DNA of 64,000 nt from a virus (Duplodnaviria; Caudoviricetes). Of this stretch, positions 1-11,745 are shown piece after piece (positions within the stretch are counted from its first letter, which is position 1; the number at the start of each line of letters is the position of its first letter). A program made the position numbers and the translations under genes. The DNA is taken from positions 1 through 64,000 of IMG/VR virus record IMGVR_UViG_3300042860_004240. One strand, 5' to 3'. Below the pieces are notes generated by a model. The model saw only the letters and a list, made by a program, of their open reading frames with translations. It had not been told where the DNA came from and ran no database searches.

Positions 1-170
1 GTTTCTGCCCTCTTTTTTTTGCAGACCACCCCGGAATGCCGTGTGATCGGATCCACGTTAACTGTCCGTGAACCTACCGTTGGCAACTCGGTAGCAAAAC
101 AAAGGCCACCAAGGCGGTACGTAGCCTCAGGTCATCCCGACCAACGTACACAACCGAAAGGAGAGCCGAA

Positions 171-596
171 ATGAGCTCACCAATCACAACCCCTGGAAAC
201 AGGCTGCATGTCCGGATCGTCACGATGCGGGAGCAGAATGGGCCTAACGGTCCGTTCGTCTCCTTGTCAGTGGCGGACGACTTTGACCCTGGGTTCAACC
301 GCATCAACGCCAACGAAGGTGATCTTGTCTCGTACACGATGACCCCTGAGGTGTGGGTAGAGTTGCTCAAGATCATCGTTGCCAAAACCGGTGCAAAGGC
401 ACAGACCAAGACGAGCAAAGGCAAGCGCCCTGCTCCCTACGTCTGCTTTGACAAAGTAGTCAAGCTCGTTATCGAGCAGACTGCTCCAATCAAGGTGACT
501 CGCAAGAGCCGTGTCGACGCCATCACCATCAGTGGTGACGTCAAGGCCGTGTCTTCACGTGACAAGCGTGCGGGCAACGGCATCAGCCTCGACTAG
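171..596 (+). CDS. Hypothetical protein, tandem paralogue 1 of 3
   Basis: RBS GAAAGGAG; shares FVSL.VAD, KVV and C-terminal RAGN(G/T)..D motifs with 791..1204 and 1542..1943. Confidence 0.85.
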   Translation: MSSPITTPGNRLHVRIVTMREQNGPNGPFVSLSVADDFDPGFNRINANEGDLVSYTMTPEVWVELLKIIVAKTGAKAQTKTSKGKRPAPYVCFDKVVKLVIEQTAPIKVTRKSRVDAITISGDVKAVSSRDKRAGNGISLD

Positions 597-624
597 CAAT
601 CGAGTTTCCGGGGAAAAGTAAATT

Positions 625-658
625 GAGGGTAGTTCCTAGCAAGGACTGCCCTCTTTTT
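625..658 (+). terminator. Intrinsic terminator, repeat copy A
   Basis: GAGGGTAGT..ACTGCCCTC stem then TTTTT; near-identical to 1377..1411. Confidence 0.8.
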
Positions 659-790
659 ATTGGAGTCCCACTCCGATGCTGGTCATCCGACTAGCAGGTG
701 GGGAGGCGAACTGTCTCGTAAGAGGCATTGCCCGGTTGGATACCGCTCTATTAGGGTGCTGCAATGCATCCAACCTGAAAGGAGGTTAAA

Positions 791-1204
791 ATGAACAACA
801 TCCCTTCGGGACGTGTACTTGTTCGTGTGAGCGTCGCTTACTCGAGGAAGAACACCGTCACCGGCGAGGTTTTCGTGTCGCTCAACGTAGCTGATTCGAT
901 GACCGCTGGGTACGAGCGTTTGCCACAAGCAGATCTCGTCACCTACGCCGTGGCCAAGGACGTGTGGACCATTCTCGTTCGCGAGATTGCAACACGCGGT
1001 GCCAAGGCTACCAAGGGTATTGACAAGAACAAGGAGTCCTACTCCAAGTTCTCGCCAAAGGTCGTTGAGTTGGTTATCCAGCTCACCGCTCCGATGGTGG
1101 TCAAGAATGTTGGTCGTAAGGGTTCGGCTCTCAGCATCGCTGGGAACGTATCCGCGATCAATGTTCGTGAGCGTCGTGCTGGCAACGGCATCGCTCTCGA
1201 CTAG
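791..1204 (+). CDS. Hypothetical protein, tandem paralogue 2 of 3
   Basis: RBS AAAGGAGG; ends RERRAGNGIALD. Confidence 0.85.
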   Translation: MNNIPSGRVLVRVSVAYSRKNTVTGEVFVSLNVADSMTAGYERLPQADLVTYAVAKDVWTILVREIATRGAKATKGIDKNKESYSKFSPKVVELVIQLTAPMVVKNVGRKGSALSIAGNVSAINVRERRAGNGIALD

Positions 1205-1376
1205 TCGATACACCTCGGTGTGACGGGTCTCGTACTGAACCAGCAGTGAACTGGGAAGCCGATAGCACGGCAAAGGTGGGCTCATGACCTACATGCTATA
1301 CATGGTTGTAAGAACCTAGTCAAGACGACCGATATGCACCGTTGCTGCGAAAGTAGGTCGAAATCAAACTTGATGG

Positions 1377-1411
1377 AGAGGGTAGTCCCTGGCAAGGACT
1401 GCCCTCTTTTT
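1377..1411 (+). terminator. Intrinsic terminator, repeat copy B
   Basis: AGAGGGTAGTCC/GGACTGCCCTCT stem then T-run. Confidence 0.8.
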
Positions 1412-1541
1412 ATTGCTTAATACCAAAGTCTGCTAGCTTACATAGATTACCGAAATGATATTCTAAACCGGCTAGCGCCCCCGTGGGGGGCTGGGGAGAA
1501 ACTCCCTGTATGTCAACTATAAATTACTGGGAGGTAATGAT

Positions 1542-1943
1542 ATGACACAGAAAGTCCAAGTACGGATCTCGACTGTTGCAATACGCGACGGGAAAGACTC
1601 CAAATTCGTAAGCCTCAATATCAGCGATGAGATGTCCCCTGGATATGATCGTCTTCCTGATGCTGAGTTGAAGTCCTACTCGCTCTCATTAGAGTTGTGG
1701 GACAAGTTCAAACTTCACTCTGAGAAATTGGGTGTGAAATGGACTTCGAAGAAGGACAAGAATGGCAAAGCGTATCTAACAAGTTCGCCGAAGGTGGTTA
1801 CATTTGATGTGGCTCTCACTCGGTCCTTGGTAGATTCCGTGAAAGACTTGGATCGTACTACACGTTCCTTGACCTTGAGCGGTACTGCTGGAAACATTCA
1901 AGTGCGTGAACAACGTGCGGGAAATACCGTCAATTTCGATTGA
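1542..1943 (+). CDS. Hypothetical protein, tandem paralogue 3 of 3
   Basis: RBS GGGAGGT; ends REQRAGNTVNFD. Confidence 0.85.
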   Translation: MTQKVQVRISTVAIRDGKDSKFVSLNISDEMSPGYDRLPDAELKSYSLSLELWDKFKLHSEKLGVKWTSKKDKNGKAYLTSSPKVVTFDVALTRSLVDSVKDLDRTTRSLTLSGTAGNIQVREQRAGNTVNFD

Positions 1944-1968
1944 TTCAAGTATTTCTTTACAAATAGTC

Positions 1969-2021
1969 GTGAGTGTCAGTATGTCTTCGGATGTGCTGAC
2001 ACTCATTACTCATATTTTTTT
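1969..2021 (+). terminator. Long cUUCGg hairpin / terminator
   Basis: GTGAGTGTCAGTATGTC-TTCG-GATGTGCTGACACTCAT then a nearby T-run. Confidence 0.65.
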
Positions 2022-2078
2022 GTGTGTAACTCAACTAGATATCCGAAAAATCCAATAAATTACTGGGAGGTAATTACA

Positions 2079-2827: not shown

Positions 2828-3166
2828 ATGACAACTCTAAAAGAGCTCATTAACCATTACTGCGAAGATGAAGACGCAGTAATAATCGAAACACTTACAG
2901 AGGACATAGCAAACTTGTTATGCGATCCCAATGAAGATGATCTAGATGTCTGGAACGAACGAATTACAAAGTTCAGTAAAGATATCATTGAGATTCGTTG
3001 GAGAGGTTTAAGTGTTAGACGTGGAGTTATGTATGTAACCCGTTCCGAAGGTAATTGGATTGGATTTACAACAGCAGGAAATGGTACACCTGCCTACATA
3101 TTCCCAGTCAACGATATTTTCGCGGAAACCATTTATTGGGAAATTCTGTCGAGAACATTGTTGTAA
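2828..3166 (+). CDS. Hypothetical protein
   Basis: Abuts previous stop; RBS GAAAGGAG. Confidence 0.7.
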   Translation: MTTLKELINHYCEDEDAVIIETLTEDIANLLCDPNEDDLDVWNERITKFSKDIIEIRWRGLSVRRGVMYVTRSEGNWIGFTTAGNGTPAYIFPVNDIFAETIYWEILSRTLL

Positions 3167-3171
3167 AGATC

Positions 3172-3250
3172 CTACTTCCCCCAAGTAGAAGACGGAGTTG
3201 AGAGCCCCGTACTGTCCCCAACAGTAGAAAGCATTCGTTGCTAGCTCTCC
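3172..3250 (+). ncRNA. Candidate small RNA with C-rich loop hairpins
   Basis: CTACTT-CCCCC-AAGTAG and TACTGT-CCCCA-ACAGTA hairpins in intergenic DNA. Confidence 0.4.
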
Positions 3251-3455
3251 ATTTCTCTTATTAGGTAATAATAAAAAAAATATTAGAACCTGATATAGAG
3301 TACCACAAATAATATAATAAATCAACATTGATAACACCAAAGTAATAAATCAAATGCAACAATTATCAATCTTTCTATAACAAGGAAATAATTAATGTTT
3401 GAAGCATTTATTGAATGGGTATTATCAATCTTTATCGGTCCTGAAGGAGGAAACG

Positions 3456-5018: not shown

Positions 5019-5264
5019 ATGGAACAATTGAAAGGACCTAACACACCTTGCATGATCTGTGAAAAAGCCATACTTTATCTATGGCCTCAACGTGATGCAA
5101 CTAACTTAAACAGTGCTGTCGATGTATCAATCGCCGGCTATTACGGATCTGACTTTGACACAATGAGATACACAGGTATCATTTGTGACCATTGTCTAGA
5201 TTCACTCATACAAAGAAATAAAATTGAATTCATAAAATCAATTTACCAAAACGAAAAGGATTAG
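5019..5264 (+). CDS. Small zinc-finger-like protein
   Basis: CMIC and CDHC pairs; RBS AAGGA. Confidence 0.7.
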   Translation: MEQLKGPNTPCMICEKAILYLWPQRDATNLNSAVDVSIAGYYGSDFDTMRYTGIICDHCLDSLIQRNKIEFIKSIYQNEKD

Positions 5265-6085: not shown

Positions 6086-6373
6086 ATGTCATTGAACAGT
6101 ATAACCCATATGCAAGCTGCAGAACTCATAGATAGTGCTGCAATGGAGGATCGACTCTATCATTTCAATGGTGGACAATCCTATCTTAGAATCAGCAATG
6201 TATCAAATGTCCTCATGGTCATTGATACGAGCCGAGCAGATAAGGTAGAAGTAAGCCTACATGATGGTACAGAATACTTTAAAACTTACGCACAAAATTG
6301 CTTTTCTTATTCCGAAAGAATGAGAATGAATCCAATGCGTAATTTCTTTAAGCTACCTGTAGAAGCACAATAG
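6086..6373 (+). CDS. Hypothetical protein
   Basis: ORF in co-directional run. Confidence 0.65.
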   Translation: MSLNSITHMQAAELIDSAAMEDRLYHFNGGQSYLRISNVSNVLMVIDTSRADKVEVSLHDGTEYFKTYAQNCFSYSERMRMNPMRNFFKLPVEAQ

Positions 6374-6395
6374 ATCACCTCCAGTAATAATAATC

Positions 6396-6459
6396 TCTAG
6401 CACATAGGCATAGTATAGATACTCTCTATATTGTGTCTATGTGTTAGATTTTATTTTTT
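6396..6459 (+). terminator. 23-bp hairpin terminator
   Basis: TCTAGCACATAGGCATAGTATAG/CTATATTGTGTCTATGTGTTAGA then T-run. Confidence 0.7.
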
Positions 6460-6584: not shown

Positions 6585-6613
6585 TTGACAAAGGAAACAT
6601 AATGATATATACT
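6585..6613 (+). promoter_or_regulatory. Sigma70/SigA-type promoter
   Basis: TTGACA-N17-TATACT upstream of the HicA-like gene. Confidence 0.7.
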
Positions 6614-6660: not shown

Positions 6661-6873
6661 ATGCCTCGGCAGCATCAAAGCTCTAAAATGAAGAGCGTTC
6701 TTAAAGAACTAACACGGTTAGGATTCACCGTAGAACGTAACAAATCAGGTACCTACAAAATTGTGCCCCCTCCCAATATTGAAGGTCCTGTTTACACTAC
6801 GCACGGAACTGAATCAGCGTACCATCCAATGAGACGCGACTTTAAGAGGATGTATAATGTTAACATTGAATAA
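6661..6873 (+). CDS. HicA-like (dsRBD-fold) protein
   Basis: 70 aa, pattern L..L...GF.V.R.K.G.YK and later TTHGT, typical of HicA-like proteins. Confidence 0.6.
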   Translation: MPRQHQSSKMKSVLKELTRLGFTVERNKSGTYKIVPPPNIEGPVYTTHGTESAYHPMRRDFKRMYNVNIE

Positions 6874-6885
6874 CACTTGTATTAT

Positions 6886-6931
6886 GTGCGAGAGTGAGAA
6901 CACGTAGTGGTTGCGTGTTCCACTCTTGCGC
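6886..6931 (+). other. Long hairpin 3' of HicA-like gene
   Basis: GTGCGAGAGTG.GAACACGTAG/TTGCGTGTTC-CACTCTTGCGC; no U-tract. Confidence 0.6.
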
Positions 6932-6974: not shown

Positions 6975-6990
6975 TGTTCCACGTGAAACA
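6975..6990. promoter_or_regulatory. parS: parS centromere site
   Basis: TGTTCCACGTGAAACA matches consensus TGTTNCACGTGAAACA exactly; intergenic. Confidence 0.8.
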
Positions 6991-7361
6991 ATTACAGTAA
7001 TTTTGTTGAACAAATAAAGAAAAGGGTCCCTCGCAGGGGTAGACCCAAACAAAACTTATCTAAACGTATAACACCACTAAAAGGAAATATTATGAATCTA
7101 TTCATAGGTATCTACCTACTCATGAGTCTTTCGGTTCTTTTGTTCGCTAAGAACGTTAAAAGAAAGAAATAAGAACTCATACAAAGATTATGCCATAGGC
7201 TAACACCACGCTTCAATTAGCCTCTTAGAGGTTATATGATAATATAATGCTTAACACATCTAGGACTATATGAGAAAGCTCACTGTTCGCTCCTAAGCAT
7301 AATCCCCTCACCTTGGCTAAATCCAAAATAAAAAAAATCTCGATCAAAAAAGAGGACTATT

Positions 7362-8264
7362 GTGACTAACAATAAAGCCGATCTACCCTTACGGGTTAAA
7401 GAAGCATTAGTACTCTCCCTAGAAATGACTTATAAAGCATTATTACAGGAATACTATACAAAAAATGTTTTTACGGGCCGAACCCATACAGATAATGCGC
7501 AGCCATCTGATACGGCTCAAACATACGACCTTATTATATTAATAGAACATATGATTCAAGCTTTAGCTTACAAACCAAAGGAACAAACCATTATGAAAGC
7601 CACGTACAACAATTCCCAAATTGAAGGTACTCCAGAAGAAATAGCAGCATTCTTTGCTGCCATCTCGACTAAGAAACAAGACACTATTGAAGAAACCAAC
7701 CGGTTAATCAAGAAGACTCAAATCGACAAAACATACCCTCCTACAAAGCGTGATCCTAACTACTACGATAAGATTAAGCCAGCACAGACTTACACTGATA
7801 CCAAATCAAGTGTAAACTTTACTAATCAGCGCAATCTTATCCAAGCAGCTATTAACACGCAACCTCAACCAGAAACATTCTTTACCTATCCAGTAAATCC
7901 TACTACTGAATTCGAAATAGATCCTGCAGCTGAATTATTCCTAAATAATTTATTCTACTACGAGCCATCTAGAACCTCTAGCACTGGCCGAGGAGCATAT
8001 GTAGCTAAGATCCTATTAACCAATAGGGCTTACACAGTAAAAGATCTTAAAAGAATCAGTCTTGCTAAGACTCAATCTGTCCGCAAGACAATAGAAAGAA
8101 TGACACGAGCAGGATGCACATTTGACATTTCAGCTCCTAGAATGGGAGACAAAGTAATAGTAAAAATGACCTCTATGGGTACCATAGAACAAGCTATTGC
8201 AGTCTACCATGCTACAGGCAATAACAATACACCATTGCCTAATCTCTTTCAACAAGAGCAATAA
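7362..8264 (+). CDS. Hypothetical protein, possible C-terminal winged HTH
   Basis: YTVKDLKRIS..KTQSVRKTIERM pattern; internal ATG with RBS near 7593 could be the real start. Confidence 0.6.
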   Translation: MTNNKADLPLRVKEALVLSLEMTYKALLQEYYTKNVFTGRTHTDNAQPSDTAQTYDLIILIEHMIQALAYKPKEQTIMKATYNNSQIEGTPEEIAAFFAAISTKKQDTIEETNRLIKKTQIDKTYPPTKRDPNYYDKIKPAQTYTDTKSSVNFTNQRNLIQAAINTQPQPETFFTYPVNPTTEFEIDPAAELFLNNLFYYEPSRTSSTGRGAYVAKILLTNRAYTVKDLKRISLAKTQSVRKTIERMTRAGCTFDISAPRMGDKVIVKMTSMGTIEQAIAVYHATGNNNTPLPNLFQQEQ

Positions 8265-8273
8265 TATACATTT

Positions 8274-8418
8274 TAATGTATTGCTGCGAAGTCTACAGGA
8301 GATGCGTCCTTCCTCCTTTGTATAGACGCGTACCTCCCAGTTACATGAGCCCACGTTATTCTATGCCCCCCGTATAGAATGCTCATGGATCTCCTGTAGA
8401 CCTCGTGGCAATACATTA
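8274..8418 (+). ncRNA. Candidate anti-Shine-Dalgarno small RNA
   Basis: 30-nt closing stem (29/30 paired) enclosing two hairpins and exposed CTTCCTCCTTT and TACCTCCCAGT. Confidence 0.7.
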
Positions 8419-8438
8419 TCCAATAAACAAAGGAACCC

Positions 8439-8855
8439 ATGGCAACTATTAAAGTGTATCACGTACAGGCAATCGATAGACTTTTAGGCAATCTCGAAGC
8501 TTTAAACTCTAGCAGTTTATGCGATAGATTATCCTATTTGCCTACCGTAGAATTTACAAAGATATGCTCGTTTCCTCTCCAATGGAGAATGTCTGATGAA
8601 GACATCTTGGACGAAGCATTCGCTGTAACAAATTCTGCCTCCTCATTTGATCATTTAAATGAGTGGTACAAATCCCTACAAAAAACTCATCAATTTTATT
8701 CTGGTTCTGCCGGCGATATTTACATACTAGAAGAATTAGATTCTCCTCCTCGAGGATACCTCGCATTATTTTCAGGATGGCAATTAATTAACATTAATCC
8801 TATCGAAAAAATGCTATCACAATCCCTCGAATGTGATATACTTCTTCCATTGTAA
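8439..8855 (+). CDS. YodL-like domain protein
   Basis: S.S.GDI...YL...GW pattern. Confidence 0.5.
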   Translation: MATIKVYHVQAIDRLLGNLEALNSSSLCDRLSYLPTVEFTKICSFPLQWRMSDEDILDEAFAVTNSASSFDHLNEWYKSLQKTHQFYSGSAGDIYILEELDSPPRGYLALFSGWQLININPIEKMLSQSLECDILLPL

Positions 8856-8958
8856 AAACTCAAAAATTGTTGAACTACTTATTTTATATATGTTGCGATA
8901 ATTTTACTCTATTATATATATATGTTTGTAACGCATTATTTCAAAATACACACAAAAC

Positions 8959-8988
8959 TTGAAATAGTGACACAATCCATGCTATAAT
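8959..8988 (+). promoter_or_regulatory. Sigma70-type promoter, extended -10
   Basis: TTGAAA-N18-TATAAT with TG before -10. Confidence 0.55.
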
Positions 8989-9024
8989 ATATATACCCTT
9001 ATATAAGATAATAGGAGAAATAAA

Positions 9025-9273
9025 ATGGCTAGAACACCAAAAAAAACTCTAGTATTACACGATTATATTAATAATCATACTGGAGATAAAGTTACTGTAA
9101 AACAACTTTCAGAGATTGCAGATTGTACAATACAAAATGTGTACGTATATCTTCGTACAAATCCTGATCGTTTTGAATCAATGGGTAAAGGAATTTACCA
9201 AATATTGGCTTCAACAGATACTACATATAAAGTTAATAATATTGACATTAAAGAAATAGACGGTACTATTTAA
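9025..9273 (+). CDS. Winged-HTH DNA-binding protein
   Basis: VTVKQLSEIADCTIQNVYVYL...GKGIY. Confidence 0.65.
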   Translation: MARTPKKTLVLHDYINNHTGDKVTVKQLSEIADCTIQNVYVYLRTNPDRFESMGKGIYQILASTDTTYKVNNIDIKEIDGTI

Positions 9274-9521
9274 GGAACCATTTAGGAAATTTGTAATTTA
9301 TAAATGTTAAATGCCTTCATATAAGGCAGGGGTAAAACCTTACTAACAAAGTAAAAAGTGTTATCGACAAAAAAAAAGATAACACACTGAAACGTGAAAT
9401 TAGGATAGCAACTGCCAACCAGGCATCTTTGCAATATTCAATTTCGCACACCTGCACAAATGCTAATGACAATGATAGAAAACCATCATCGTCAAAACCG
9501 AGTACAAGGAGCGTAAAAAGA

Positions 9522-10394
9522 ATGATTACAAAATCATACTTAAAATTAATAGGAATAATAATAACGGCTACTTCAATAATACTTCCAACCTCACCAGCTT
9601 CGGCTCGTGAATCGGAGGTTCCTAGACGTAGCTTACCATCTGTTCAATTAACTGAAAGTCCTACTAAATGGACTAAAGTAGAATTTAAGATGGGTCCCTC
9701 TACAAAATATTGGGACAAAGTTGCCAAATGTGAAACTAATTCAGATTGGCAAGATGGTGGTAACTGGGGAGGTGGACTAGGCATAGCCTTATCTACATGG
9801 AAAGGTTATGGCGGTTTGGAGTTTGCTCCTAAACCTGGTCAAGCTACAAAGATTGAACAAATCGTTGTAGCTAACCGAATAGCAGTATTCGGATATCAAA
9901 CTAAAGATACTTATATTACTTTAGAAGATAGATTAGCCAACAAACCATTCTACAGACCACCTGTAAGTTTCTATGGATGGGGTTGTATTAAGAATAATAA
10001 TTATCTTAAACCACCTAAATCCACAACTTACTCAGTTAAACTCCCAGTAGGAGAACAATATTATTGTCCTCAATACGAACCAATATTCCAAAAATATGCT
10101 TTGCCAGCCAAAGTATTTTCCTACATTGCTTGGCGTGAATCTAGGTGTAATCCTGGAGCCGTCAATGCAGTATGGGAAAATGGACAACTCGTTTGGACAC
10201 TTAATAAAAACGGATCATATGATTCAGGTTTACTACAAATTAACTCTTCATGGTTTAAAACATTAAAAGTACAATTAGGACATACACCTGAAGATCTAAT
10301 GAACCCATCAGTTAATGCTTTATTTGCCAGCTGGATCTTACACTTCTCAAGTGGAAGACTATCTAATTGGAGTCTTAAAGCACTCCCTGCATAA
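9522..10394 (+). CDS. Secreted tandem lytic transglycosylase (Rpf domain plus SLT/lysozyme-like domain)
   Basis: Signal peptide; WDKVAKCE..GGL...STW..YGG..A..AT..EQI (Rpf); RESRCNP.A.N..D.GLLQIN (SLT); start set at ATG 9522 after AAGGAG. Confidence 0.85.
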   Translation: MITKSYLKLIGIIITATSIILPTSPASARESEVPRRSLPSVQLTESPTKWTKVEFKMGPSTKYWDKVAKCETNSDWQDGGNWGGGLGIALSTWKGYGGLEFAPKPGQATKIEQIVVANRIAVFGYQTKDTYITLEDRLANKPFYRPPVSFYGWGCIKNNNYLKPPKSTTYSVKLPVGEQYYCPQYEPIFQKYALPAKVFSYIAWRESRCNPGAVNAVWENGQLVWTLNKNGSYDSGLLQINSSWFKTLKVQLGHTPEDLMNPSVNALFASWILHFSSGRLSNWSLKALPA

Positions 10395-10448: not shown

Positions 10449-10479
10449 AGTTTGTATAAACTCATACAAAGAACCTAGA

Positions 10480-11673: not shown

Positions 11674-11745
11674 TAGTAATCTAATTAATTCTATATAATT
11701 CATACAAAGAAAAAAACTGCATTTACATCCATTAAGGAGGAAGTA

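What the first reader, a model, noticed from the sequence alone, without database searches (positions are those of the whole stretch)
8274..8418. Highly structured sRNA whose exposed segments match RBSs of the phage's own early genes and polymerase
Seen: a 30-nt closing stem (29 pairs, two G-U) encloses hairpin GCGTC/GACGC with loop CTTCCTCCTTTGTATA, a linker TACCTCCCAGT, and a hairpin with a C6 loop. TACCTCCCAGT (8331-8341) is the perfect 11-nt complement of ACTGGGAGGTA at 1526-1536 and 2062-2072 (two RBSs). CTTCCTCCTT (8309-8318) is the perfect complement of AAGGAGGAAG at 11734-11743, the RBS of the putative RNA polymerase. The same loop's CTTTGTAT matches the ATACAAAG motif at 11702-11709 in the correct antiparallel order. 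Inference: a multivalent anti-SD RNA that switches off early genes and/or host mRNAs with strong SDs. With the elements at 3172, 6373 and 42322 it may form an undescribed RNA-based translation control layer.
Basis: partly seen in the sequence, partly recalled or inferred. Interest (0 to 1): 0.85.

Follow-up and report, generated by a model that had tools for sequence, protein, structure and literature searches.

The report
Conserved phage RNA displaying anti-Shine-Dalgarno tract
A group of uncultured lake giant phages keeps a tightly folded RNA between two early genes; it exposes a copy of the ribosome's mRNA-selecting sequence, so it probably dampens translation start sites, though nothing has been tested at the bench.

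Summary
The structure is real. Window 8274-8418 folds at -67.7 kcal/mol (z -10) exactly as described. It recurs at the same gene junction in all 12 related metagenome loci that hold the upstream DNA.

Across 9 distinct sequences, 23 of 35 pairs show compensatory changes. There are 31 G-U cells against 4 A-C cells, which marks a + strand RNA.

Three features are shared by all clades:
- a ~30-bp closing helix;
- a predicted-unpaired UCCUCCUUU tract (UCCUUU in the farthest clade);
- an apical oligo-C loop.

The hairpin around the tract and the linker UACCUCCCAGU are additions of the window's own clade. There, 8304-8352 has 0 of 49 variable sites.

The linker's 11-nt match to two leftmost-gene leaders is modestly beyond chance (P about 0.01-0.015). 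The match to the polymerase RBS is not (P 0.06-0.13).

No Rfam family fits. My best reading is a processed anti-SD regulatory RNA, a phage variant of the 6C/Cuckoo type of sRNA. A purely cis processing element remains a serious rival.

This scan has already noted comparable phage anti-SD RNAs on other DNA.

The parts
7362..8264 (+). Upstream gene, 300 aa. Its stop codon lies 9 nt before the element. Distant homologues give only sub-threshold HTH/MarR_2 hits.
   Evidence: ORF list. No Pfam or PHROG family. P0038 matches MarR_2 at E 0.0085, below the curated cut-off. Syntenic homologues lie upstream of the element in the 12 loci with upstream DNA (L010, L011, L013-L022).
8274..8418 (+). The whole structured RNA element, 145 nt.
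   Evidence: MFE -67.7 kcal/mol, z -10. Model R1 matches the + strand in the window and 12 loci. Single copy in the 81-kb record.
8274..8303 (+). 5' arm of the closing helix. It holds the conserved box GUCUACAGG at 8291-8299.
   Evidence: 21 of its 31 pairs show compensatory changes. The 5' strand box is nearly invariant, while the 3' strand varies through G-U pairs.
8389..8418 (+). 3' arm of the closing helix.
8304..8329 (+). Hairpin 1 (5-bp stem, found only in the window's clade). Its 16-nt loop at 8309-8324 holds the conserved tract UCCUCCUUU at 8311-8319.
   Evidence: The tract's unpaired probability is 0.86. The tract is present in all clades; it is UCCUUU in L021/L022.
8330..8343 (+). 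Single-stranded linker carrying a second anti-SD segment, UACCUCCCAGU, at 8331-8341. It occurs only in the window's clade.
   Evidence: Identical in 5 of 5 close-clade sequences. Absent from L015-L022.
8344..8387 (+). Hairpin 2: lower stem, internal loop at 8351-8357, upper stem, and the oligo-C loop at 8366-8371.
   Evidence: The upper stem covaries within the close clade, where the loop reads CCCCCC, UCCCC or CCCUUC. CCCCCC is kept in L015-L022.
8427..8434 (+). SD region (ACAAAGGA) of the downstream gene. It is complementary to 8 nt of the tract.
   Evidence: AAAGGA is kept in front of this gene in all four clades.
8439..8855 (+). Downstream gene, 138 aa, no known family. It co-occurs with the element.
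   Evidence: Both the gene and the element are absent from G001-G004.
1521..1538 (+). Candidate target 1: an 18-nt leader forming a weak SD hairpin in front of gene 1542-1943.
2057..2074 (+). Candidate target 2: the identical 18-nt leader in front of the ATG at 2080.

Best explanation
This is a conserved RNA module of 100-145 nt. It is transcribed on the + strand as part of an early/middle operon, between a 300-aa gene and a 138-aa gene, in one lineage of uncultured lake giant phages.

A helix of 30 bp closes the module; in one clade a further outer helix is predicted below it. Directly above that helix the RNA displays two things:
- a single-stranded pyrimidine tract that, from memory, repeats the anti-Shine-Dalgarno part of the 16S rRNA tail (UCCUCCUUU);
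- an apical hairpin with an oligo-C loop.

The window's clade has placed the tract in a hairpin loop and added a second anti-SD segment.

Most likely mechanism: the long helix acts as a processing and stabilising module of the RNase III substrate type. It releases or protects the core. The exposed tracts then base-pair in trans with Shine-Dalgarno regions of mRNAs and lower translation initiation. In the window's clade the added segment is tuned to the SD-hairpin leader shared by two leftmost genes.

Shown: the fold, the strand, conservation, predicted accessibility and the complementarities.
Inferred: processing, pairing in vivo, and repression.
For: Fold: z = -10.

Occurrence: the element is found at the same junction in the window and in all 12 loci that hold the upstream DNA. 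These span four clades in which the neighbouring protein is 53-99% identical.

Covariation:
- In 9 distinct sequences, 23 of 35 pairs carry compensatory changes.
- On the 5-sequence alignment A4, 96.6% of cells are paired against 85.8 +/- 1.7 in shuffles. 13 pairs changed on both sides, 0 of 500 shuffles reach this, and slid controls give 0-2 such pairs.

Strand: 31 G-U cells against 4 A-C cells. Model scores are 99-109 bits on the + strand against 46-52 on the - strand.

Tract:
- It is predicted unpaired in 9 of 9 homologues.
- The whole stretch 8304-8352 is invariant in 5 close relatives: 0 of 49 sites vary, against 168 of 838 in the upstream ORF and 32 of 139 third codon positions downstream.

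Target match: the linker fits the two leaders with 11 of 11 nt and -20.5 kcal/mol, P about 0.01-0.015. L030 keeps the leader at both sites. The two complete distant relatives lack both the element and the leader.

Analogue: at the syntenic spot of G003 there is a structured RNA unrelated in sequence (L008 2881-3031, z -4.7). It also combines a 23-bp closing helix, a C5-loop hairpin and a loop with ACCUCCU.

Weak hint of processing: in lake metatranscriptome contigs from two studies, a contig covering the upstream gene stops inside the 5' arm, at 8293 and at 8278. Each then runs on into letters that I recognise from memory as sequencing adapter. Downstream contigs start at 8422 and 8424.

Precedents for the mode of action:
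- CcsR/Cuckoo sRNAs carry anti-SD loops and are cut from a 3' UTR (PMC8034643, passages read).
- The 6C sRNA acts through C-rich loops (PMC6486639, title and start of abstract seen).
- Fully paired stems are cut on both strands by RNase III, and rRNA flanking stems are RNase III sites (PMC8708148, passages read).
Against: - No transcript end, abundance or strand is actually shown. The RNA data are assembled contigs from libraries that may contain DNA. The two stops are 15 nt apart, and calling the loose letters adapter rests on my recall.
- A general anti-SD RNA would also hit the phage's own genes, which use AGGAG/AAAGGA sites throughout.
- The farthest clade has lost CCUCC and keeps only UCCUUU. 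That fits pairing with the AAAGGA site of the next gene at least as well as it fits a general decoy.
- The oligo-C loop varies within the close clade.
- The linker-leader match carries a post hoc P of about 0.01 and could not be tested for co-variation.
- No own promoter or terminator was found.
- No RNase III gene lies in the 81-kb fragment, so the enzyme would have to be the host's.
Confidence: 0.4

Rival explanations
1. Purely cis-acting intercistronic element. The long helix is an RNase III-type processing or mRNA-stabilising site that uncouples the 300-aa and 138-aa cistrons. The UCCUUU tract acts only on the AAAGGA ribosome-binding site of the 138-aa gene just downstream, either on the same molecule or on its precursor, and so sets that gene's translation.
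For: - The element always sits a few nucleotides after the upstream gene's stop, as read from the sequences, and directly before the 138-aa gene.
- The element and that gene are present together and absent together.
- The only part of the tract kept in all four clades is UCCUUU. The downstream gene keeps AAAGGA, without GGAGG, in all four.
- Complementarity runs 7-9 nt, with one swapped pair between clades: window CCUUUGU with ACAAAGG, L015 CCUUUCUA with UAGAAAGG.
- Contig ends lie inside the 5' arm, and one low-depth contig runs from 8349 into the downstream gene.
- Intercistronic RNase III cleavage is well known (PMC8708148, passages read).
Against: - In the window and in L021 the SD lies only about 10-14 nt after a 30-bp helix. 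By my geometric estimate it cannot reach the tract at the top of that helix without opening it; this is inference, not a computed result.
- The helix forms before the SD is transcribed.
- ACAAAGGA is not private to this gene. Two other sites within 6 kb carry it.
- This reading does not explain the invariant second anti-SD linker, its 11-nt match to distant leaders, or the oligo-C loop.
Confidence: 0.27
2. Protein decoy. The RNA imitates the single-stranded 3' tail of 16S rRNA, or simply offers pyrimidine-rich single strands. It thereby titrates a protein that binds such RNA, for example a ribosomal protein, an assembly factor, a ribonuclease or a defence nuclease. It does not pair with mRNAs.
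For: - The L015 tract, CCUCCUUUCUA, equals what I recall as the usual bacterial 16S 3' end. This is recalled, not tested here.
- Unpaired parts are invariant in the close clade.
- The box GUCUACAGG on one strand of the helix is conserved beyond what pairing requires, which suggests recognition by a protein.
Against: - No candidate partner was identified. The neighbouring proteins have no family. No S21 gene lies in the fragment.
- The tract degenerates to UCCUUUCC in one clade.
- The host's 16S sequence is unknown.
Confidence: 0.13
3. Transcription-level signal for the phage's own RNA polymerase or the host's: a terminator, pause site or antiterminator RNA acting in cis on the operon.
For: - The hairpin is very stable and sits inside an operon that likely starts at the promoter-like motif at 7177.
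- The phage carries an unusual 851-aa protein that a first-stage note reads as a polymerase. That note is unchecked, and no Pfam or PHROG family matches the protein.
Against: - No U-tract follows the helix, and the scan found no terminator-like site there.
- The contig stops lie in the 5' arm, not after the 3' arm.
- This reading does not explain the conserved anti-SD tract.
Confidence: 0.08
4. Not an RNA device at all: a mobile inverted-repeat element, a DNA cruciform or binding site, a small ORF, or chance.
For: 30-nt inverted repeats flank an 85-nt core. Two short ORFs overlap it.
Against: - It is a single copy in a fixed syntenic position.
- Compensatory changes and 31 G-U against 4 A-C cells point to selection on + strand RNA.
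- Length differences (100-145 nt) and a 1-nt indel in L010 break any ORF.
Confidence: 0.02

Closest known systems
CcsR / Cuckoo (alpha-r14) sRNAs of Alphaproteobacteria
   Same: Hairpin loops display an anti-Shine-Dalgarno sequence, and the RNAs are cut out of the 3' UTR of the upstream mRNA (PMC8034643, passages read). Here an anti-SD tract is displayed just after a stop codon, inside an operon.
   Different: No Rfam family matched the element at any threshold, and it lacks the CCUCCUCCC motif. It is phage-borne, enclosed by a 30-bp helix, and present as one unit rather than tandem copies. Processing by RNase E is not indicated. Targets are untested.
6C sRNA of high-GC Gram-positive bacteria
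   Same: C-rich hairpin loops serve as the pairing surface, without a chaperone (PMC6486639, title and start of abstract seen). The element carries an oligo-C apical loop. The phage has an Rpf-type transglycosylase domain, which fits an actinobacterial host; that link comes from recall and an unchecked scan note.
   Different: No Rfam family matched at any threshold. There is only one oligo-C loop, and it varies in the close clade. The dominant conserved feature is a CCUCC/UCCUUU tract, not C runs.
RNase III processing sites of phage early polycistronic mRNAs (T7 R1.1 type) and rRNA flanking stems
   Same: Intergenic and on the same strand as the genes, with a long double-stranded stem. A fully paired stem is expected to be cut on both strands, as in the stems that flank 16S and 23S rRNA (PMC8708148, passages read).
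   Different: As I recall, T7 sites are simple hairpins with an internal bubble and carry no conserved functional core. Here the helix encloses conserved single-stranded anti-SD and oligo-C elements. Cleavage is only hinted at.
Other phage anti-SD structured RNAs noted earlier by this scan (AI notes, unchecked)
   Same: Folded phage RNAs with exposed CCUCC-type loops, some read as 16S-tail mimics and some matched to private RBS tags of early genes (e1-5656689, e1-5785799, e1-5405250 and others).
   Different: No sequence look-alike of this element exists in the scan's index. The architecture here, a long closing helix with a bulged tract inside an operon, is its own.

Membership tests
Any Rfam 15 family (including 6C, ar14/Cuckoo, 6S, Y RNA-like, ribozymes, riboswitches) | Covariance-model match at the gathering score, or any match with E up to 10 | tested here: not met
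   At the gathering score the window gives only 4 tRNA hits. In E-value mode on 8240-8450 the only row is a snoRNA model at 15 bits, E 7.7.
tRNA / tmRNA | ARAGORN or RF00005 hit | tested here: not met
   The 4 tRNAs lie elsewhere in the window; none is at 8274-8418.
Anti-SD / C-rich-loop base-pairing sRNAs (functional class) | Pyrimidine-rich anti-SD motif exposed in a loop or single strand, and conserved | tested here: met
   The tract is predicted unpaired (0.71-0.99) in 9 of 9 distinct homologues and is kept in all four clades.
Anti-SD / C-rich-loop base-pairing sRNAs (functional class) | A discrete small transcript (own promoter and terminator, or processing) that represses targets by pairing at the RBS | not testable with these tools
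   Only assembled RNA contigs were available. No promoter or terminator flanks the element.
Anti-SD / C-rich-loop base-pairing sRNAs (functional class) | Co-variation of seed and target across relatives | tested here: inconclusive
   The leader is kept in L030 and the linker in 5 of 5 close relatives, but never seen in the same second genome. One swapped pair links the tract and the downstream SD between clades. The left ends of the other clades could not be reached.
RNase III substrate | About two helical turns or more of near-perfect double-stranded RNA | tested here: met
   29-31 pairs, maintained by covariation.
RNase III substrate | Staggered cleavage of both strands in vivo or in vitro | tested here: inconclusive
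   Contigs from two studies end at 8293 and 8278, followed by letters I recall as adapter. Downstream contigs start at 8422 and 8424. No raw reads or mapped ends were available.
Intrinsic (rho-independent) terminator | GC-rich hairpin followed directly by a U-tract | tested here: not met
   No terminator-like site is reported at 8418. The sequence after the helix has no T run.
MITE / small mobile inverted-repeat element | Several dispersed copies; insertion polymorphism | tested here: not met
   One copy in the 81-kb record. Fixed synteny in 12 loci.

The most novel reading that the evidence does not exclude
The phage makes an RNA copy of the ribosome's mRNA-selecting tail. The module is cut out of an early operon through its rRNA-like flanking helix. 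The stable core then competes with 30S subunits for Shine-Dalgarno sites. In the window's clade it would specifically shut off the immediate-early genes at the left end, whose leaders present the SD in a small hairpin. That would be an RNA counterpart of protein-based early-gene shut-off such as T4 RegB (recalled). Together with the scan's earlier notes, it would mark anti-SD decoy RNAs as a widespread, undescribed layer of phage translation control.
Probability: 0.25. Interest if true: 0.8.

Novelty: new variant of a known kind. Interest (0 to 1): 0.6.

Why it matters
Phages are known to take over translation with proteins and tRNAs. My two full-text searches found no paper describing a phage-encoded structured RNA that displays the ribosome's anti-SD sequence.

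This element has real evolutionary support: four clades, compensatory pairs, and invariant loops. It also offers a concrete, testable pairing, an 11-nt match to two early leaders.

If it works as proposed, it would show how a giant phage times early gene expression at the level of ribosome binding. It would extend the 6C/Cuckoo type of chaperone-independent regulation to viruses.

It also supplies a clean model substrate: a 30-bp helix enclosing a functional core, comparable to rRNA processing stalks.

Tried and rejected
- Close relatives by DNA. Megablast and blastn against GenBank phage records found nothing. An 18-nt piece of the stem found two viral contigs, but the alignment showed chance matches.

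- Single-protein scans of viral contigs with either neighbour found nothing. Neither did the alignment A2. The metagenome scan with A2 gave the 13 useful loci.

The many contigs listed for P0001-P0038, including ones up to 221 kb long, could therefore not be read.

- The genome search on metagenome loci: none is held. I could not test whether the leader, the polymerase RBS or other RBSs co-vary with the tract in other clades.

- Polymerase relatives L006-L009. R1 gave no credible hit; the best was 12.5 bits at E 0.67. The 138-aa protein is absent. G002 has tRNAs at the syntenic spot.

- Relatives of the L008 analogue. Only identical copies were found, so its conservation could not be tested.

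- Function of the neighbours. Pfam and PHROGs gave nothing above threshold. The PDB profile search gave nothing. The AlphaFold model of the 138-aa protein reached only pLDDT 60, so I did not search folds with it. The Atlas offered a YodL lead at 0.91, found in 16-29% of members, which I treat as unverified.

- RNA-seq cover. The interior 8305-8371 has next to no contig cover in the four RNA runs.

- A genome-wide anti-SD layer. Motif counts show no intergenic excess of CCTCC.

- MAFFT alignment of all clades (A3) was misaligned by the 45-nt insertion. I used the model-based alignment A5, + rows only, dropping its 8 - strand rows and 4 duplicate rows.

- Supplementary files of papers were not consulted.

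Full report
**What is there.** Window 8274-8418 lies between two + strand ORFs: 7362-8264 (300 aa) and 8439-8855 (138 aa). As RNA it folds at -67.7 kcal/mol, against -29.3 +/- 3.8 for 200 shuffles (z -10.0; 0 of 200 shuffles as good).

- closing helix 8274-8303/8389-8418, with 29 pairs, two of them G-U, and one A.C mismatch;
- hairpin 8304-8329 with a 16-nt loop;
- single-stranded linker 8330-8343;
- hairpin 8344-8387 with an internal loop and a C6 apical loop.

The quoted complementarities are all present.

**What the genome is.** The window is the first 64 kb of an 81-kb IMG/VR virus record estimated at 38% complete. Earlier scan notes call it a lake giant phage with unusual decoding (unchecked). 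Genes on the + strand use ordinary AGGAG/AAAGGA ribosome-binding sites throughout. The element is a single copy in the record.

It matches no Rfam family. The gathering-score search returned only 4 tRNAs, and the E-value search of 8240-8450 returned one 15-bit chance row. It is not a tRNA, and no GenBank phage record resembles it.

**Relatives.** That gave 13 loci, of which 12 hold DNA upstream of the gene; L012 starts at the gene itself.

All 12 carry a homologous structure at the same place, with conserved gene order around it. A covariance model built from the three distant clades (A4, R1) finds the window and all 12 loci on the + strand at 37-109 bits. The - strand of the training clades scores 46-52 against 99-109 bits.

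The model finds nothing credible in four records that share the 851-aa protein, two of them complete genomes. Those records also lack the 138-aa gene.

**Structure is under selection, on the + strand.** On the model-based alignment I kept the 9 distinct + strand rows, dropping the 8 - strand rows and 4 duplicates.
- 23 of 35 pairs show compensatory changes, 21 of them in the 31-bp closing helix.
- Cells are 256 Watson-Crick, 31 G-U, 4 A-C, 8 other and 16 gapped.

On a - strand or DNA reading, the 31 wobble cells would be mismatches. The counting tool on A4 (5 sequences) gives 96.6% of cells paired against 85.8 +/- 1.7 in shuffles. 13 pairs changed on both sides, 0 of 500 shuffles reach this, and slid registers give 0-2.

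**What is conserved besides the helix.** In all four clades a 9-10-nt pyrimidine tract lies unpaired directly above the 5' strand of the helix. It reads UCCUCCUUU in three clades and AUCCUUUCC in L021/L022. Its mean unpaired probability is 0.71-0.99 in 9 of 9 distinct sequences.

All clades also have an apical small stem with an oligo-C loop. Within the window's clade that loop reads CCCCCC, UCCCC or CCCUUC.

The hairpin that encloses the tract in the window, and the linker UACCUCCCAGU, exist only in the window's clade. The other clades are 100-110 nt long and have a simple bulged-hairpin design.

Variable sites among five sequences of the window's clade:
- 8304-8352 (loop, linker, lower stem and part of the internal loop of hairpin 2): 0 of 49;
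- upstream ORF: 168 of 838;
- downstream ORF: 47 of 417, including 32 of 139 third codon positions;
- upper hairpin 2: 10 of 36, and these changes are compensatory.

Unpaired sequence is therefore constrained as sequence.

**Targets.** The linker's 11-mer complement sits in an 18-nt leader that is identical in front of genes 1542 and 2080. The leader folds into a weak hairpin presenting the SD.

Keeping a CCTCC core and randomising the flanks gave these results:
- An 11-nt match to any of 94 RBS windows has P 0.0148. The loop's 10-nt match to the RBS at 11734 has P 0.0588.
- By duplex energy the linker's two hits, at -20.5 kcal/mol, stand apart from the next best (-14.0) and the median (-5.8). 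P = 3 of 300.
- The loop's best hit is not unusual: 40 of 300 shuffles reach it.

L030, a relative of the window's left end, keeps the core of the leader at both sites. The two complete distant relatives lack both the leader and the element.

The loop's 8-nt match at 11702 falls in a repeated, promoter-like motif with four exact + strand copies, placed in intergenic DNA and sometimes just after a terminator. The tracts of the other clades do not follow that motif. I count it as coincidental or clade-specific.

The tract also matches the SD of the gene immediately downstream by 7-9 nt in every clade, with one swapped pair between clades. But the same 8-mer serves two other sites within 6 kb.

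**Expression.** The stretch 7300-9300 is found in 18 lake-water DNA runs and, in part, in 6 metatranscriptome runs. Contigs from four RNA runs, laid at 90% likeness, cover both neighbouring genes.

In two studies a contig over the upstream gene stops at 8293 and at 8278, inside the 5' arm. Each continues into letters that I recognise from memory as sequencing adapter. Downstream contigs start at 8422 and 8424, and one low-depth contig spans 8349-8577.

These are assemblies from libraries that may contain DNA, so I take them as a weak hint of discrete ends in the helix and nothing more.

**Transcription signals.** No sigma-70-like promoter or intrinsic terminator flanks the element. A strong promoter-like site lies at 6585-6613, the repeated motif at 7177, and another promoter-like site at 8959-8988. 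The element is therefore most simply part of the 7362-8855 transcript.

**An analogue.** In G003, between the same conserved flanking genes, the two ORFs and the element are replaced by unrelated ORFs. There is also a 151-nt structured RNA (L008 2881-3031, z -4.7). It has a 23-bp closing helix with three G-U pairs, a hairpin with a C5-containing loop, and a hairpin loop containing ACCUCCU. Only identical copies of it were found, so this is one observation. Still, it repeats the same set of parts.

**Reading.** A long, covarying, perfectly paired helix is what RNase III cuts on both strands. It resembles the stalks that flank rRNAs (PMC8708148, passages read). Exposed anti-SD or C-rich loops are the working surface of CcsR/Cuckoo and 6C sRNAs (PMC8034643, passages read; PMC6486639, title and start of abstract seen).

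I therefore rate the readings as follows:
- A processed anti-SD RNA acting in trans: 0.40.
- A purely cis processing and translation-setting element for the 138-aa gene: 0.27.
- A protein decoy: 0.13.
- A transcription signal: 0.08.
- A non-RNA explanation: 0.02.

The cis pairing is hindered by geometry in two clades, because the SD lies 10-14 nt after a 30-bp helix. This is my estimate, not a computed result.

**Novelty.** Two full-text searches found no phage-encoded anti-SD structured RNA in print. This scan's own notes list several comparable phage RNAs on other DNA but no sequence look-alike of this one.

I class it as a new variant of a known kind of regulator. It has good evolutionary support and an untested mechanism.

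Noticed in passing
window 5206-5215, 7177-7186, 10462-10471, 11700-11709 (exact); 4994, 14312, 25652, 2603 (one mismatch): The repeated + strand motif TCATACAAAG lies in intergenic DNA upstream of genes, in some cases right after a terminator hairpin. 16 matches with up to one mismatch, against 8.0 +/- 2.7 in shuffles. It is probably a phage promoter or operator. A diverged copy sits at the same place in the L011, L015, L020 and L021 loci.
   Followed up: partly
window 1521-1538 and 2057-2074; L024-L030: The 18-nt SD-hairpin leader is found letter for letter in front of start codons in 7 viral contigs (8 sites) with GC from 23 to 45%. Only one of them (L030) is related to this phage by the proteins tested. 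An identical RBS cassette in otherwise unrelated phages is unexplained.
   Followed up: partly
window 6373-6450: Directly after the stop of gene 6086-6373 comes a single-stranded AUCACCUCCAGUAAU, followed by a 24-bp hairpin and a U-tract (z -7.6). This is the only other intergenic CCTCC on the + strand. It is near-complementary to the same early leader with one bulge. The motif is kept in the 4 close-clade loci but not in L015, L020, L021 or L022.
   Followed up: partly
window 3166-3262: A structured stretch after gene 2828-3166 holds two hairpins with CCCCC and CCCCA loops (z -4.4). It is another candidate C-rich-loop RNA.
   Followed up: partly
window 6886-6931 and 6975-6990: A hairpin just after the highly conserved 70-aa gene 6661-6873 shows compensatory stem changes across clades.
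   Followed up: partly
window 7092-7172: A small ORF of 26 codons encodes a hydrophobic peptide with a basic tail, preceded by an AAAGGA site. A similar ORF is present in L011.
   Followed up: no
L008 2881-3031 (record G003): A structured RNA unrelated in sequence sits at the syntenic position. It has a long closing helix, a C-rich loop and an ACCUCCU loop, and lies upstream of an unrelated 136-aa ORF.
   Followed up: partly
window 1-2000: The leftmost 2 kb has 51% G+C against about 35% elsewhere. It holds a tandem array of paralogous 133-141-aa genes. L030 carries at least four such copies.
   Followed up: partly
window 9429-10394: An early-region protein has an Rpf-type transglycosylase domain and an SLT domain. 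This hints at an actinobacterial host.
   Followed up: no
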